Source of the DNA: an uncultured Gemmatimonadales bacterium
Lineage (GTDB): Bacteria; Gemmatimonadota; Gemmatimonadetes; Gemmatimonadales; GWC2-71-9
DNA length: 64,000 nt
Assembly: GCA_963779755.1 (NCBI GenBank)
Contig: CAVZZO010000001.1
Coordinates: 192,001-256,000, forward strand
Reading direction: 5' to 3'
Part shown: one piece after another, positions 8,022 through 52,880 of the stretch
Position numbering within the stretch: position 1 is the first letter of the stretch
Layout: each line of letters begins with the position of its first letter
The notes under the pieces: model-generated
Database searches by the model: none
Told to the model about the DNA's origin: nothing
Seen by the model: only the letters and a program-made list of their open reading frames with translations
Translations under genes and position numbers: made by a program

Positions 8022-8402
8022 TTATCGCACCGATTCAAGCCCATAGCGGCGGATCTTCGCCAGCAGAGTAGAGCGGGCGACCCCCAGCTGGAGTGCCGCC
8101 TGCCGGCGATTGCCCCCCGTGTACCGCAGCATGTCAGCGATGTGCCGGCGTTCCGCCTCTTCCAGCGACAGAGGCGCGGCGGGAAGGCGCGGCGCGAGTG
8201 CGGCTCGCAGTGCGGCAAGATCGACGTCGGGCAGGCCCGGGTCCAGGAGCACGAGGCGGAATGCGCCGCCGGCCACCGCCTGAGCGGCTTCGGCGCCGTC
8301 GTGGACGAGCATCGTCCGGTATCCGGCAGCCTCGAACATGGCTCGCAGTTGTTCCTGCCGGAGGGGGTCGCGCTCCAGCACCAGCACGGTCGCCTCGCTC
8401 AT
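8022..8402 (-). CDS. Short receiver fragment fused to Fis-type HTH
   Basis: LVLLDPGLP followed by LEEAERRHI..GGNRRQAALQLGVARSTLLAKIRRYGL. Confidence 0.85.
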   Translation of the reverse strand: MSEATVLVLERDPLRQEQLRAMFEAAGYRTMLVHDGAEAAQAVAGGAFRLVLLDPGLPDVDLAALRAALAPRLPAAPLSLEEAERRHIADMLRYTGGNRRQAALQLGVARSTLLAKIRRYGLESVR

Positions 8403-8463
8403 GGCACTTAGTATATCTTTGGGCGGGAGTCCCGCAACGCCGCCTCAGCCCACCGACACCGTC

Positions 8464-9441
8464 ATGGATATCATCGACCTCACCCGCCTCGAAGTCGGGC
8501 ACCGGCTGCAGGATCCGCTGCTGGTCCTGGAGATCGACCAGCGCGGTAGCGGGGAGGGCTCCTTTACCGTGCTCACCTTCGGCAACAGCACGGGGCGAAT
8601 CGCCAGCGCGCCCTTCTGGTTTGAAGAACAGCCGCGGGTCGCGGGCGTCGGCCGGGGCGATGTGGTCCAGGTCATCGGCGAGGTAACCACCTACCGCGAC
8701 CGGCGCCAGCTGAAAGTCACCTCGCTCCGCGTATTGCCGCGGGGCAACGTGGATTGGCGGTCCCTGCTCCCCTCGGTGGGCGATACCACCCGCTACTGGG
8801 AGGTGCTCGATCAGTGGCGCCGGGATATCGCCGGCGGCCGCCTGCGGGATACGCTCGCTCTCTTCTACGAGGACGACGACTTCCGCCGCCGGTACGGCGA
8901 ATGCCCCGCCAGCCTGAGCGGGCATCACGCCATGCTGGGCGGTCTGCTCAAGCACACCGCCGAGGTCGCCACCATCGGGCGGGCCATCGCCCGCACCATC
9001 CCGCGCGCCGATCCCGACCTGGTACTGGCCGGCGTGCTGCTGCACGATATCGGCAAGCTGGAATCCTACCGCTGGGAAGGGGTCTTCGAGATGACCGACC
9101 GCGGCGCCCTCTATGGCCACGTCGTGCTGGGCACCCTGATGCTCGAGCGCCGCATCCGGGACTGTCCCGCTCCCCCCTGTGAGCCCGCCGAACTCGATCT
9201 GCTGCACCACCTCATCCTGAGCCACCATGGGAAGCTGGAATTCGGGGCGCCGGTCTCCCCCATGACGCTCGAGGCGGAGATCCTCCATTTTGCCGACAAC
9301 GCCAGCGCCAAGACCACCAGCATGGCCGACGCCCTGGCCGACGGCGAGAATTTCACCGGCGACGGCCTGGTCAGCGCCCGGACCATCTGGCAGCTGGACC
9401 GCCGGAGAGCCTATCGCGGGACGAGCGACTGGGGCCGGTAG
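8464..9441 (+). CDS. yhaM: OB-fold/HD-domain 3'-5' exoribonuclease, YhaM-like
   Basis: HHAMLGGLLKHT, LLHDIGK, GHV, ILSHHG and EAEILHFAD motifs, with an N-terminal OB fold. Confidence 0.85.
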   Translation: MDIIDLTRLEVGHRLQDPLLVLEIDQRGSGEGSFTVLTFGNSTGRIASAPFWFEEQPRVAGVGRGDVVQVIGEVTTYRDRRQLKVTSLRVLPRGNVDWRSLLPSVGDTTRYWEVLDQWRRDIAGGRLRDTLALFYEDDDFRRRYGECPASLSGHHAMLGGLLKHTAEVATIGRAIARTIPRADPDLVLAGVLLHDIGKLESYRWEGVFEMTDRGALYGHVVLGTLMLERRIRDCPAPPCEPAELDLLHHLILSHHGKLEFGAPVSPMTLEAEILHFADNASAKTTSMADALADGENFTGDGLVSARTIWQLDRRRAYRGTSDWGR

Positions 9442-9450
9442 CGAATGCGC

Positions 9451-9539
9451 AAATGTGGATTCACATTCTCCACACGGGTGTGGACAGGGGGCCAAGCTGG
9501 CTTTCCGATCAGCACTTAGCGATCCACATTTCTTCCACT
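9451..9539. promoter_or_regulatory. Cluster of DnaA-box-like 9-mers
   Basis: TGTGGATTC 9454, TTCTCCACA 9466, TGTGGACAG 9479, CGATCCACA 9520, TCTTCCACT 9531. Each matches 7-8 of 9 positions of TTWTCCACA. Confidence 0.5.
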
Positions 9540-9716
9540 TCAAAGCAGCGTAACCCGAATAAATACAGGCACTTGCGCGTTTCCAGCGAGGCCCTATCTT
9601 AGGCTCACGCCGGACGAGATCGCGAGAAATGCCTCCGCGCATGATCGAATGAGCTTCTGGCGGGTCTGGGCGGGATATCGGAGGAGATTGCCGACGCAAC
9701 CAAGGGCTCAGGCAAT

Positions 9717-9983
9717 CGGTGATCCCGGTGGCCACTCCAGTCCAGACCGATAAGGCCAGTCGCGTGCCTTATCCACCCCGATTCAGCGCCTCGGGGTGCA
9801 GTGCGGAAAGTCGGTCCGCGACCCGATTGATCCGCAGCGCCCGCAGTGATGAACCAGGTGGGATGGCCATCCGGCCTGGGGATCGAAGCCGAGGCCTCTG
9901 CAGACCTTACCGCGAGCGTATCAGTTCACGGCGGCAGCAGAGAGAAGAACGGCAGCAAACGCTCCGACCTCGGGTAATCACTG
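9717..9983 (+). ncRNA. Candidate ~270-nt structured non-coding RNA (possibly raiA-motif-related)
   Basis: End-closing helix 9717-9727/9971-9983, hairpins 9749-9773, 9774-9798, 9802-9836 and 9854-9879, helix 9914-9919/9959-9964, and complementary loops GTCGCG/CGCGAC. Lies between convergent genes and is followed by a strong hairpin. Confidence 0.6.
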
Positions 9984-9986
9984 TGC

Positions 9987-10028
9987 GGGACGGCCGCCTA
10001 GTCTGAGGGCTAGGCGGCCGTTCCATTT
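9987..10028 (+). terminator. Strong hairpin, probable (bidirectional) terminator
   Basis: ACGGCCGCCTAG/CTAGGCGGCCGT perfect 12-bp stem followed by TCCATTT. Confidence 0.65.
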
Positions 10029-10057
10029 CCCCCTCCCCAGGCCTCGCCGCCGCGAGG

Positions 10058-10669
10058 CTATGGCCTTCCGGAATCCTCGCGGGTGGACCTGCGCTTCGGA
10101 GAGTCGAGACCTCCCGCCAGCGGATTGGGCCCGGCGCCGAGCGGCCGCAGGCGGATGTTGATCGCCCGTAATACGTCGTTGGCCGAGGCATCGTACCGGT
10201 GAATCGCGTCCGCCGTCTTGAGCGCGGTGGACACTCCGTAGCCCCGAAGCTCCTCCGACTTGTCCCGATCGGTCCAGGCCGTAAACTTCTGCTGGCACGC
10301 CTTGAGGGAAGTTTCCAGCGCATCCATGTGCCGCCGCAGCATCAGGCGCTGCGGTTCCGGCACGCTGTCCATCAGCGGGGAGCGCAGGAACGATTCCCGC
10401 GTGGAGGGGAGCGTGCGGGAAGCGGCTCCGCACCGCTCCTGCAGTATCCGCGCGCGGGAGGACAGCACGTAGGATGAACTCTGGGAAAGATCGCGCTGCA
10501 GCCGGGCGATCGAGGCGGTGACACCGGCCAGGCTGTCGCGCAGGATCAGGTAGCCGTCCCGGACCGCCGCATGCGGCGGATCGAGCGGCTTCTCCGGCAG
10601 CGCAATGGCCTGGGCGGACAGTGGAACGGGAAGGGCCAGCAGACCCAGCAACAGCAGACGGCGGATCAC
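10058..10669 (-). CDS. Hypothetical secreted helical protein
   Basis: Signal peptide MIRRLLLLGLLALPVPLSA|Q and two Cys. Coupled to the upstream gene by GTGA overlap. Confidence 0.65.
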   Translation of the reverse strand: MIRRLLLLGLLALPVPLSAQAIALPEKPLDPPHAAVRDGYLILRDSLAGVTASIARLQRDLSQSSSYVLSSRARILQERCGAASRTLPSTRESFLRSPLMDSVPEPQRLMLRRHMDALETSLKACQQKFTAWTDRDKSEELRGYGVSTALKTADAIHRYDASANDVLRAINIRLRPLGAGPNPLAGGLDSPKRRSTREDSGRP

Positions 10670-11277
10670 GATTCCAGTCCCACCTCGATATAGCGGAACG
10701 AAGTCTCTTCACTGCTGGAGGAAAACAGGCACCCCGCCGCACTGGCGGCAAACCAGCCCGCCATCAGGGGGCGCGGACCGTCCAGTTCCTGAACCACCGG
10801 CCCCAGCCACCGCCGGATATGGCGGATCTCCGGAGCCCGCCGGCCCAGCAGCGAAATCAGCGCGCCCGTGCCCGAGGTGGCCCGGAGGAAATGCGCCAGG
10901 CTGTGCGCACGCTGGCTGAACTCCACGACCTTTACGCCCGGCTCGTCGAAGATCACCGCGCCGTCCATGGCATCCATGGGCGGCGCATCCAGCCGCGGCC
11001 CGAGATAGAGGAAGCGGCGGCCGTCTTCTCCTTTGCGCTCGATGACGGCGGCAGCGGTTTCGCTGGTCAGCCGCGCGGCATGCAGCAGGTCGTCATCGAA
11101 CAGGGCTCCGACCGCGTTGGTCCATTCGAGGGCCGCCAGCGCAGTTTCGACCGGGCAGCCCAGTGCCTCGTCGAACGCAAGCAGCCGGGGCGCTTCGCCG
11201 GCACGGAGCAGAAAATGGCTCAGGGCCTCCGCACGGTCGAGCAGCGTCCGGACCACCAGGCTGTTGGGCTGGGTCAT
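10666..11277 (-). CDS. Hypothetical protein with internal repeat
   Basis: Coding-like ORF. Repeated RAEALSHFLLRA / RAHSLAHFLRA segments. Confidence 0.7.
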   Translation of the reverse strand: MTQPNSLVVRTLLDRAEALSHFLLRAGEAPRLLAFDEALGCPVETALAALEWTNAVGALFDDDLLHAARLTSETAAAVIERKGEDGRRFLYLGPRLDAPPMDAMDGAVIFDEPGVKVVEFSQRAHSLAHFLRATSGTGALISLLGRRAPEIRHIRRWLGPVVQELDGPRPLMAGWFAASAAGCLFSSSSEETSFRYIEVGLES

Positions 11278-11411
11278 AGGAAGGAACAATAAGGTCTCCG
11301 GTCCCCAGTCTCCAGTCTCCCCCTGCCCCCGTTCCATTCTGGAGCCCCACCCTCCCGCGTCCGGCGAGGGCGCTAACCTCTTAGATTCCACCAGGCTTCA
11401 CGAGGCTCGCC

Positions 11412-11933
11412 ATGAAGGTCGAATGGAACAGTTACCAGTCACCGCTGGGCCCGCTGGTGCTGGTGGAATCTCCCGCCGGACCGCTGGTGGTGGAGTATGC
11501 CCAGCGCGCCGCGCTGCCTGAAACGGATGACCTGTTACGGCGGCGCTTCCCCGGCCTGGAGCCGGCGCTGGGACCCTGCCGGGCCACCAGCGGCTGGCTC
11601 GATGCCTACTTCGGTGGTCAGCCGCTTGGCTTTCCCTACCCGGAATACCTGGAGCGCTATCTGCGGGTCACCCCCGCCGCCGCGGCGGTCTGGCGGGCCA
11701 TGTGCGATATCCCCTTCGGCGAAACCCGCACCTATCAGGCGTTGGGGCGCGCCACCGGACTGCATGCCCGCCTGGTGGGGAGGATGGCGGGGGCCAATCA
11801 CCTGGCCATCCTGATCCCCTGCCACCGGGTAGTCGGCAGCCGGGGCGATCTGGTGGGATATGGCGGTGGTATCGGTCGCAAGCGGCGGCTGCTGGCGCAT
11901 GAGCTTCGCAGCAGTGGCGTTCTGCTTCGCTGA
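11412..11933 (+). CDS. ogt: Methylated-DNA-protein-cysteine methyltransferase
   Basis: SPLGPL, IPFGETRTY and IPCHRVV..GYGGG motifs. Confidence 0.92.
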   Translation: MKVEWNSYQSPLGPLVLVESPAGPLVVEYAQRAALPETDDLLRRRFPGLEPALGPCRATSGWLDAYFGGQPLGFPYPEYLERYLRVTPAAAAVWRAMCDIPFGETRTYQALGRATGLHARLVGRMAGANHLAILIPCHRVVGSRGDLVGYGGGIGRKRRLLAHELRSSGVLLR

Positions 11934-52677: not shown

Positions 52678-52693
52678 TTACCTGCTCGGTCGT

Positions 52694-52803
52694 CGCCGCG
52701 CTCCCTCCGCCGGTGTGAGCCGGATCAGGTTCCAAGGGTACATTCTCAATCCAGCCTGCGGAGGCGGGAATCTCCCGACCCTCGGCGTGGATGCCCCTGG
52801 CGG
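52694..52803 (-). promoter_or_regulatory. TPP riboswitch
   Basis: Minus strand AGGGG..TGAGA..ACCCTT.GAACCTGATCCGG..CACACCGGCGGAGGGA, directly upstream of thiC. Confidence 0.93.
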
Positions 52804-52880
52804 CATCCGCGAATAGTAAAGATGGCCGCGAAGCGGGGTCAATAGTGATATTCCAGCGTCTCTTCGCGGATGCGCCTTTC

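What the first reader, a model, noticed from the sequence alone, without database searches (positions are those of the whole stretch)
9650..10028. Unannotated ~270-nt structured RNA with kissing loops, possibly a divergent raiA-motif-like RNA
Seen: a ~615-bp gap between convergent genes with no convincing ORF. It holds an end-closing helix, two abutting perfect 8-bp hairpins (9749-9773, 9774-9798) and a third hairpin whose loop CGCGAC (9817-9822) is exactly complementary to the first loop GTCGCG (9759-9764). Further helices and a strong hairpin follow. With no same-strand gene downstream it is unlikely to be a cis riboswitch. Inference from memory only: the ordered words CCAGTCGC, ATCCAC, GGTGC..AAGT..GTCC, GCAGTGA, GCGAG and GACC recall the raiA motif RNA of Bacillota/Actinomycetota. 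It could be a range extension of that family or a new RNA class.
Basis: partly seen in the sequence, partly recalled or inferred. Interest (0 to 1): 0.85.

Follow-up and report, generated by a model that had tools for sequence, protein, structure and literature searches.

The report
New large RNA with partner protein
The gap holds a real, highly expressed, intricately folded RNA gene of about 430 bases from uncultured soil Gemmatimonadales; it matches no known RNA family and always sits beside one orphan protein gene, so it is probably a new RNA-protein particle whose job is still unknown.

Summary
The RNA is larger than reported: about 430 nt (window ~9601-10030, + strand). It has its own conserved promoter and a terminator hairpin. 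On 30 sequences, 108 pairs in 17 helices are 93.3% paired and 78 pairs show compensatory changes (0 of 500 shuffles reach this). Two pseudoknots lock an almost invariant 93-nt core. No Rfam 15 family matches, and raiA is not supported. RNase P, tmRNA and SRP RNA lie elsewhere in the genome.

Metatranscriptome contigs from four studies cover only the RNA. One 400-nt contig ends at both predicted ends.

The RNA occurs in two Gemmatimonadales families (72 of 73 sampled genomes) and in 0 of 77 other genomes of the phylum.

The new point here is a 203-aa orphan protein (window 10669-11277, - strand). It occurs in exactly the same 73 of 151 genomes. In 72 of 73 it lies within 1.6 kb of an RNA copy, in three different gene arrangements.

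My best reading is a new ribonucleoprotein of unknown biochemical function.

This scan found the same RNA class twice before on other DNA. Three literature searches found no paper describing it.

The parts
9454..9529 (.). Cluster of TGTGGA/TCCACA hexamers (DnaA-box-like words) 75-150 nt upstream of the promoter; probable binding sites for a transcription factor
   Evidence: 4 exact hexamers here. This is one of only 3 clusters of 4 or more within 150 bp in the 4.23-Mb genome; the other two are tandem repeats. 27 of 30 extracts have 2 or more within 135 nt upstream of the -35. Similar words precede the extra RNA copies. Binding by DnaA is inferred only.
9549..9572 (+). Conserved A-rich block just upstream of the -35 (GTAACCCGAAtAAA..GGCAC); UP-element-like
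   Evidence: The most conserved part of the upstream region in blastn (up to 100% over 29 nt) and in the alignment. The combined word is unique in the genome.
9573..9600 (+). Sigma-70-type promoter: -35 TTGCGC (9573-9578), 16-nt spacer, -10 TATCTT (9595-9600)
   Evidence: CTTGCG and TA..(A/T)T are aligned in nearly all relatives. The simple promoter scan did not call it.
9601..10030 (+). The RNA gene, about 430 nt (5' end inferred between 9601 and 9616)
   Evidence: The length from -10 box to terminator is 419-448 nt in 27 of 29 relatives. There are 108 pairs in 17 helices. RNA-library contigs cover 9606-10015 only.
9625..9747 (+). Variable 5' domain: hairpin 9625-9647 and a branched stem 9664-9747 that holds hairpin 9686-9717 with a conserved loop
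   Evidence: Helices 1-4 have compensatory changes in 27 of 28 pairs. The domain is missing in L012, partly missing in L009, and absent from some extra copies.
9749..9841 (+). Near-invariant double-pseudoknot core: H1 9749-9773, H2 9774-9798, H3 9804-9834; PK1 9759-9764 with 9817-9822; PK2 9786-9789 (9785 in relatives) with 9837-9840 (9841)
   Evidence: PK1 outer pair is GC 22 / AU 7. PK2 pair 9787:9839 is CG 23 / UA 7. The stretch around the core that was modelled (window 9748-9896) is 148-151 nt long in all 30 sequences.
9842..9985 (+). 3' domain closed by the 9-bp helix 9842-9850/9977-9985; contains hairpin 9854-9879, a three-way region and conserved strands (GGGGAUsGAAGCC, GAGAAGAAC)
   Evidence: All 9 closing pairs have compensatory changes (helix 11). 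Helices 12-16 covary. Conservation is shown.
9987..10024 (+). Terminator hairpin (17 bp, loop UGAG) followed by AUUU
   Evidence: The stem covaries and a T-run follows it in relatives. The simple terminator scan did not call it.
10666..11277 (-). Gene of the candidate partner protein (203 aa from the ATG at 11277; stop at 10666-10668); an orphan family
   Evidence: Found next to the RNA in 28 of 29 relatives' loci. Present in the same 73 of 151 genomes as the RNA. Within 314-1577 nt of an RNA copy in 72 of 73. No Pfam, NCBIfam or PDB match. The AF2 model has pLDDT 85.2.
10058..10669 (-). Intervening ORF (203 aa, signal-peptide-like N-terminus); not part of the conserved pair
   Evidence: Found in 6 of 29 relatives' loci. 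No family.
8338..9441 (+). YhaM-like OB+HD gene; a frequent neighbour but not co-distributed with the RNA
   Evidence: NF010007 E 2.9e-34 over its full length, 118.6 bits against a cut-off of 460. Present in 14 of 29 loci. Phylum sample: f1 39/71, f2 16/31, f10 13/13.

Best explanation
Window ~9601-10030 (+) is a free-standing gene for an abundant, stable, roughly 430-nt structured RNA. It is transcribed from its own sigma-70-type promoter, which has an A-rich upstream block and, further upstream, repeated TGTGGA/TCCACA sites. Transcription ends at a long hairpin.

The RNA folds into three parts: a variable 5' domain, a nearly invariant core of three hairpins locked by two pseudoknots, and a 3' domain closed by a long-range helix.

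I propose that it acts in trans as the RNA subunit of a particle formed with the 203-aa orphan protein encoded next door (window 10669-11277, -). The core and 3' domain would be the protein-binding or active part, and the 5' domain an accessory.

Shown: the gene, the fold, expression, taxonomic range, and linkage to the protein gene. Inferred: physical binding. Unknown: the biochemical activity. Roughly 0.97 that this is a real structured ncRNA of a family absent from Rfam 15, and roughly 0.55 that it works together with the neighbouring protein.
For: Conservation:
- blastn of the gap hits 22/24 family-f1 and 8/8 family-f3 relatives at 66-78% identity.

Fold:
- RNAalifold predicts 100 pairs, 77 with compensatory changes.
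- With both pseudoknots added, 108 pairs are 93.3% paired, against 38-45% when partners are slid. 78 pairs carry double changes, against 28-42 slid and 50.7 +/- 3.1 shuffled, with 0/500 shuffles as high.
- Both pseudoknots carry a compensatory pair.

Transcription unit:
- The promoter and the terminator hairpin align across relatives.

Expression:
- 10 metatranscriptome runs hold the conserved part.
- In 4 runs from 4 studies, contigs cover 9606-10015 and almost none of the flanks (only a trace, depth 0.7-1.4, at 9300-9367 in run X10).
- No listed contig (the longest are shown) exceeds 400 nt, although these runs have contigs of 4-8 kb.
- One 400-nt contig spans about 9616-10015.

Not a known RNA:
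-.

Protein link:
- The partner gene lies beside the RNA in 28/29 loci, in three arrangements. It is upstream on the same strand in 20. It is downstream and convergent in 8. In this window it is also convergent, but the HD gene lies on the other side of the RNA.
- In a sample of 150 genomes of the phylum plus G000, RNA and protein are found in the identical 73 genomes: f1 70/71, f3 2/2, others 0/77.
- They are 314-1577 nt apart in 72/73. The exception has the RNA 615 nt from a contig end.
- G001, missed by blastn, has both. G022 has neither.
- The protein family is narrow: 133 representatives among 1.84 billion proteins.
- It folds confidently (pLDDT 85.2, pTM 0.83).
Against: - No binding was tested.
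- The protein is acidic (pI 5.0-6.3 in all 29) and has no recognisable RNA-binding domain.
- Related genomes are not independent. The phyletic match amounts to about one gain and one loss. Because the genes are adjacent, one deletion or an assembly gap could remove both in G022, which also lacks the HD gene.
- 17 of the 20 additional RNA-copy loci that I fetched have no partner gene within 4 kb.
- L009 has the RNA, but no partner gene was found in its locus.
- Contigs cannot show strand or level, and the flanks may be uncovered only because relatives' flanks are too diverged to be laid.
- The simple scans called neither the promoter nor the terminator in this window.
Confidence: 0.55

Rival explanations
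1. The RNA works without the neighbouring protein, as a ribozyme, an RNA-only assembly, or a sponge or scaffold for other factors. Adjacency to the 203-aa gene would then be inherited gene order only.
For: Extra RNA copies stand alone: 17 of 20 fetched loci have no partner gene. The protein is acidic with no RNA-binding domain. The phyletic match reduces to few events. Large ornate bacterial RNAs can assemble without protein (PMC12286853; search listing and start of abstract only).
Against: Adjacency survives an inversion of the RNA module, insertion of another gene, and loss or movement of the HD gene. It holds across two families whose partner proteins are only 40-44% identical. The frequent HD neighbour did not stay co-distributed.
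Confidence: 0.27
2. It is a functional analogue of 6S RNA (or of mycobacterial Ms1, recalled): an abundant RNA that binds RNA polymerase and tunes transcription with growth state.
For: The Rfam 6S model finds nothing in G000 or in 0/71 f1 and 0/2 f3 genomes. The RNA is abundant in RNA libraries. Its promoter architecture resembles that of a stable RNA.
Against: 6S is also not found in 0/31 f2 genomes, which lack this RNA, so there is no complementary distribution. The fold is a multi-domain double pseudoknot, not a rod with a central bubble. The size is 430 nt, against a 187-position 6S model.
Confidence: 0.08
3. It is a cis-acting element (leader, 3' UTR or antisense RNA) of a neighbouring gene.
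For: In 20 of 29 loci the partner gene is upstream on the same strand.
Against: It has its own conserved promoter and terminator. In 8 loci and in this window the partner gene is convergent. Every flanking gene identified downstream (HD in 14 loci, partner gene in 8) is on the opposite strand. Unlinked extra copies carry their own promoter and terminator. RNA contigs are bounded by the RNA ends.
Confidence: 0.03
4. It is a divergent member of the raiA motif family or of another Rfam family.
Against: No gathering-level match. There is no raiA row even at E up to 10 with relaxed filters on 721 nt. All 80 listed pattern matches are Gemmatimonad MAGs.
Confidence: 0.01

Closest known systems
OLE RNA with its Oap proteins (Bacillota)
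   Same: A large, highly conserved, abundant structured ncRNA of unknown biochemistry that forms a ribonucleoprotein complex with dedicated partner proteins (search listing and abstract starts only: PMC3413148, PMC7936274, PMC12265935).
   Different: No sequence or structure match. About 430 nt rather than about 600. A different phylum. The candidate partner is a soluble-looking acidic 203-aa orphan protein with no Pfam or NCBIfam family, so not an Oap-type match there. Binding was not shown here.
raiA motif RNA (Bacillota/Actinomycetota)
   Same: A free-standing, widespread structured ncRNA whose biochemical role is unsettled (abstract starts of PMC10861870 and PMC11706538).
   Different: No match to any Rfam model at relaxed thresholds. 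A different phylum. About twice the raiA size as I recall it. A different fold with two pseudoknots.
ROOL and GOLLD RNAs
   Same: Ornate large bacterial RNAs without a known function (abstract start of PMC12286853).
   Different: No model match. The main copy sits at a conserved chromosomal locus. Self-assembly was not tested.
6S RNA / Ms1 and Y RNA-Ro particles (recalled, no call)
   Same: Abundant trans-acting RNAs that work by binding one protein or enzyme. Several RNA paralogues can serve one protein, as here, where 18 of 73 genomes have 2-3 RNA copies and 1 protein gene.
   Different: No 6S fold and no 6S model match. No Ro-like protein was identified. The partner has no known family.

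Membership tests
raiA motif RNA (Rfam) | Significant score against the family's covariance model | tested here: not met
   No gathering match. At E up to 10 on 9400-10120 there are only 4 rows, none of them raiA.
raiA motif RNA (Rfam) | Occurrence in Bacillota/Actinomycetota | tested here: not met
   All 80 listed genome matches are Gemmatimonad MAGs.
6S RNA (RF00013) | Covariance-model match | tested here: not met
   No match in the window or in the whole genome.
6S RNA (RF00013) | Single long irregular helix with a large central bubble, about 185 nt | tested here: not met
   The consensus has 17 helices in three domains with two pseudoknots, about 430 nt.
RNase P RNA, tmRNA, SRP RNA | Covariance-model match at this locus; one copy per genome | tested here: not met
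   No match here. Full-score copies lie elsewhere in G000: C1:310843 (263.8 bits), C1:2132714 (138.9 bits), C3:588093 (45 bits).
OLE RNA (Rfam) | Covariance-model match | tested here: not met
Free-standing ncRNA gene | Own promoter, own terminator, discrete transcript | tested here: met
   The promoter and hairpin+T-run align in relatives. RNA contigs are bounded at about 9616 and 10015. Strand and exact ends are not shown by contigs.
Conserved RNA secondary structure | Compensatory base-pair changes above controls | tested here: met
   78 of 108 pairs, 0/500 shuffles, slid controls 28-42. R-scape itself was not run.
Ribonucleoprotein with the 203-aa neighbour | Physical binding of protein to RNA | not testable with these tools
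   Only linkage and co-occurrence are available.
YhaM 3'-5' exoribonuclease (NF010007), for the HD gene | Full-length match over the curated cut-off | tested here: inconclusive
   Full-length alignment (5-310 of 314), E 2.9e-34, but 118.6 bits against a cut-off of 460. HD domain plus a weak OB match.
CYTH/TTM tunnel, PCNA-like, WGR or SUKH folds, for the partner protein | Clear structural or feature match | tested here: inconclusive
   Foldseek found no E<=0.001 and TM about 0.2. VIA best Z was 5.5 (wide) and 5.1 (second look). Atlas score 0.85.
DnaA-box cluster, for the upstream hexamers | Several 9-mers close to the recalled consensus; binding by DnaA | tested here: inconclusive
   4 boxes with 1-2 mismatches in 70 bp, the third densest cluster in the genome. 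The dnaA/GC-skew-minimum region shows no such cluster. Binding is not testable here.

The most novel reading that the evidence does not exclude
The RNA is the catalytic or ligand-sensing subunit of a previously unseen ribonucleoprotein enzyme. The invariant double-pseudoknot core would be the active site and the 203-aa orphan protein an obligate cofactor. Its synthesis would be tied to replication or growth state through the DnaA-box-like sites upstream.
Probability: 0.12. Interest if true: 0.95.

Novelty: categorically new. Interest (0 to 1): 0.8.

Why it matters
Large, highly conserved structured RNAs are rare in bacteria, and the known ones with solved functions (ribosome, RNase P, tmRNA, SRP) carry out core biochemistry. 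Each new class is therefore a candidate for unknown chemistry or regulation.

This one is present in nearly every sampled genome of two families of Gemmatimonadales. Its conserved part turns up in soil, sediment, mangrove and salt-marsh metatranscriptome runs; contigs from mangrove, sediment and soil runs were laid on it here.

Its tight linkage to a single orphan protein of confident fold gives a concrete, testable two-component system. Both parts can be made recombinantly, which opens a route to function in a lineage with no cultured member carrying it.

Tried and rejected
- **Simple promoter/terminator scan of 9300-10200:** 0 sites of either kind.
- **Origin of replication:** dnaA is at C1:305 kb and the GC-skew minimum at C1:310 kb, about 105 kb from the RNA. 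That region has no hexamer cluster.
- **Promoter words elsewhere in the genome:** the combined upstream block plus -35 context is unique to this locus.
- **YhaM-like gene as partner:** rejected because it is not co-distributed (f1 39/71, f2 16/31, f10 13/13).
- **6S replacement:** no complementary distribution.
- **Shared neighbours of extra RNA copies:** only spurious ORFs over the RNA itself, plus a phosphoribosyltransferase next to 3 copies. That protein is unrelated to the partner (hhalign probability 0.1).
- **Partner protein family and fold:**
  - Pfam, NCBIfam and PDB sequence searches found nothing below E 0.1.
  - Foldseek PDB gave no E<=0.001; weak rows were mostly CYTH/TTM and PCNA.
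  - VIA wide gave best Z 5.5 (AP2, WGR; residues 43-139 only).
  - VIA second look gave best Z 5.1 (PCNA).
  - ESM Atlas gave 0.85 to SUKH-4/SMI1 clusters, below its own reliability mark.
  - The profile search of 1.84 billion representatives found only the family itself and fragments.
  - Longer hits carry no Pfam domain, and sources name the protein 'hypothetical protein'.
- **Weak homologues in the sister family f2:** best 22.5 bits, E 0.05, in 5 near-complete genomes.
- **All-against-all mutual information on 52 sequences:** recovered the helices and pointed to PK2. Otherwise it was dominated by clade signal.
- **Habitat from small word shares in runs that I did not lay**: not used as evidence.
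- **Not run:** Complex prediction, the second structure job and the metagenome scan. None would have tested RNA-protein binding.

Full report
**What is in the sequence**

The stretch 9442-10057 lies between a + strand ORF (8338-9441) and a - strand ORF (10058-10669). The + ORF is HD-domain and YhaM-like: NF010007 E 2.9e-34 over its full length, but below the curated cut-off. The + strand of 9650-10028 folds at -190.5 kcal/mol, z -5.56 against 100 shuffles. The - strand reaches only z -2.61.

**Not a known RNA**

All 4227 Rfam 15 models gave one gathering-level hit in the window, a TPP riboswitch at 52684-52808. A relaxed scan of 9400-10120 (E up to 10) gave four chance-level rows and no raiA, 6S, OLE, RNase P, tmRNA or SRP. 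In the window's genome, RNase P RNA, tmRNA and SRP RNA are found elsewhere at full score. The 6S model finds nothing anywhere in the genome.

**Conservation and boundaries**

blastn of 9440-10060 against 40 relatives hit 22/24 genomes of the same family (f1) and 8/8 of a second family (f3), but 0/8 of a third (f2). Identity was 66-78%, which is very high for intergenic DNA between genera. I used the 29 loci that the tool returned; G007's weak hit got no locus.

The alignment shows three conserved upstream features:
- a cluster of TGTGGA/TCCACA words
- an A-rich block
- a -35/-10 pair (window TTGCGC 9573-9578 and TATCTT 9595-9600)

About 430 nt downstream lies a GC-rich hairpin, followed in relatives by a T-run. 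The distance from the -10 box to the end of the terminator is 419-448 nt in 27 of 29 relatives. L012 (296 nt) and L009 (374 nt) lack all or part of the 5' domain. So the RNA is about 430 nt, not about 270, and starts near 9601-9616.

**Fold**

- RNAalifold on the 30 sequences predicts 100 pairs, 77 with compensatory changes.
- I dropped two spurious end pairs and one pair that clashes with a pseudoknot, and added the two pseudoknots. That gives 108 pairs in 17 helices, 93.3% of cells paired. When partners are slid by 1-3 columns, 38-45% are paired.
- 78 pairs carry double changes, against 28-42 when slid and 50.7 +/- 3.1 in shuffles; 0 of 500 shuffles reach the observed values.
- Caveat: the nested structure was derived from this same alignment, and related sequences can exceed shuffles without any structure. 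The slid controls are therefore the fairer comparison.

The architecture in window coordinates:
- 5' hairpin 9625-9647
- branched 5' domain 9664-9747
- core hairpins H1 9749-9773, H2 9774-9798 and H3 9804-9834
- 3' domain closed by 9842-9850/9977-9985
- terminator 9987-10024

Its outer pair is G-C in 22 sequences and A-U in 7.

A second pseudoknot was suggested by a mutual-information scan on 52 sequences. It pairs the H2 loop (9786-9789) with the strand just 3' of H3 (9837-9840). It is 99.3% paired, and pair 9787:9839 is C-G in 23 and U-A in 7. In each pseudoknot the switch probably reflects a single evolutionary event in one clade.

The stretch that I modelled around the core (window 9748-9896) is 148-151 nt long in all 30 sequences.

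**Not coding**

The window's 95-codon ORF (9719-10006) has an earlier stop in its counterpart in 43 of 51 relatives. The counterpart's length varies between 273 and 309 nt, out of frame. Variability is flat over codon positions.

**Expression**

An index search found 20 runs that hold part of the stretch. Ten are on record as metatranscriptomes, and all ten hold small shares of the sampled words. I laid four of them, from four studies, at 80% likeness.
- Contigs cover 9606-10015 and almost none of the flanks; the only exception is a trace (depth 0.7-1.4) at 9300-9367 in one run.
- Among the pieces listed (the longest are kept), none belongs to a contig longer than 400 nt, although the runs contain contigs of 4-8 kb.
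- One 400-nt contig aligns from 9628 to 10015 with 12 further letters at its 5' end.

This fits a discrete, abundant transcript with the predicted ends. Two limits apply. Contigs cannot show strand or level. The flanks of relatives may simply be too diverged to be laid.

**Range**

A covariance model of the modelled stretch (R1, 150 positions, 33 pairs) found the RNA in 73 of 151 genomes of the phylum sample, G000 included:

| Family | Genomes with the RNA |
|---|---|
| f1 | 70/71 |
| f3 | 2/2 |
| f2 | 0/31 |
| nine other families | 0/46 |

Five near-complete f2 genomes, searched at E up to 1, gave at best 22.5 bits, against 45-172 bits for true hits.

All 80 listed titles are MAGs labelled Gemmatimonadales, Gemmatimonadota, Gemmatimonadetes or Gemmatimonadaceae. 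None of the listed titles names a cultured isolate.

55 genomes have one RNA copy, 16 have two and 2 have three. The extra copies carry the core, the 3' domain, a terminator and, where recognisable, their own promoter preceded by similar TGTGGA-type words. Some have a roughly 60-nt leader instead of the 5' domain.

**The partner gene**

tblastn with the window's flanking proteins showed that the ORF at 10666-11391 (-) is present in 28 of 29 relatives' loci. Its conserved part begins at the ATG at 11277. There are three arrangements:
- upstream of the RNA on the same strand in 20 loci, sometimes with another small gene in between
- downstream and convergent in all 8 f3 loci
- in this window, convergent, but with the HD gene on the other side, so the RNA module is inverted relative to most f1 relatives

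A profile of 29 of these proteins (A2) found the gene in exactly the same 73 of 151 genomes as the RNA, always once. In 72 of 73 it lies 314-1577 nt from an RNA copy on the same contig. The exception has its RNA 615 nt from a contig end. G001, which blastn had missed, has both. G022 (97% complete) has neither.

By contrast, the YhaM-like gene is a neighbour in only 14 of 29 loci. It is found in 39/71 f1 genomes, 16/31 f2 and 13/13 f10, so it is not tied to the RNA.

What is known about the partner protein:
- It has no Pfam, NCBIfam or PDB relative.
- It has only 133 representatives, many of them fragments, among 1.84 billion proteins.
- Sources call it 'hypothetical protein'.
- It folds confidently as an alpha/beta protein (pLDDT 85.2, pTM 0.83).
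- It has no clear structural neighbour (best Z 5.5).
- It is acidic (pI 5.0-6.3) with an arginine-rich helix near residues 146-157.

**Interpretation**

The gene, its fold, its expression and its range are shown. Partnership with the protein is inferred from linkage that has survived rearrangement across two families whose partner proteins are only 40-44% identical, and from identical presence and absence.

Several points weaken that inference:
- Related genomes are not independent.
- Adjacent genes are lost together by one deletion or one assembly gap; G022 also lacks the HD gene.
- The extra RNA copies have no partner gene nearby.
- The protein does not look like a classical RNA binder.

I put the RNP reading at about 0.55 and an RNA-alone role at about 0.27. 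A 6S- or Ms1-like role gets about 0.08, because the 6S model also finds nothing in the f2 family, which lacks this RNA, and because the fold is not rod-like.

The upstream hexamers resemble DnaA boxes (four 9-mers with 1-2 mismatches to the recalled consensus) and form the third densest such cluster in the genome. They are conserved. The locus is not the origin of replication, and binding is untested.

**Prior knowledge**

Two earlier notes of this scan (e1-4773820 and e1-3608568) describe the same RNA class on other Gemmatimonadota DNA as a roughly 425-430-nt unclassified RNA of unknown function. I reached the same description independently from this window.

Three full-text searches found no paper that links Gemmatimonadota with a large structured RNA. 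For all papers I saw only listings and the starts of abstracts. Supplements of RNA-discovery papers were not examined and could list this motif.

**Unpublished genomes**

G014 is one of the 29 relatives in A1-A3 and in model R1. G082 is counted. G119 is counted.

Noticed in passing
window 52684-52808 (-): TPP riboswitch, RF00059, 57.6 bits against a gathering score of 54.3.
   Followed up: no
window 9454-9529: Four DnaA-box-like 9-mers (1-2 mismatches to the recalled consensus) upstream of the RNA promoter. This is the third densest such cluster in the genome. The words are conserved in relatives and echoed upstream of unlinked extra RNA copies.
   Followed up: partly
window 8338-11391 compared with L003-L031: The promoter-RNA-terminator module is inverted in this genome relative to most relatives of the same family, while the same two flanking genes are kept.
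   Followed up: partly
L075-L093 (extra copies in other genomes): 18 of 73 genomes carry 2-3 copies of the RNA but a single partner gene. Some extra copies replace the 5' domain with a roughly 60-nt leader. Three lie next to a phosphoribosyltransferase gene.
   Followed up: partly
G000 C3:596690-596930 (outside the window): Seven DnaA-box-like 9-mers, including one perfect match to the recalled consensus. This is denser than anything near dnaA (C1:305 kb), where the GC-skew minimum lies.
   Followed up: no
G000 C3:264361-265938 (outside the window): One open frame of 1006 aa with two separate Bac_DnaA domain matches.
   Followed up: no
window 10058-10669 (-): ORF of 203 aa with a signal-peptide-like N-terminus and no family. 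It is wedged between the partner gene and the RNA here and in 6 of 29 relatives.
   Followed up: partly
G000 C3:1380432-1380500 and C1:2173108-2173350 (outside the window): Tandem repeats that contain the word TCCACAGATTACG.
   Followed up: no
window 11412-11933 (+): Methylguanine-DNA methyltransferase-like gene (PF01035, E 2.3e-25), divergent from the partner gene.
   Followed up: no
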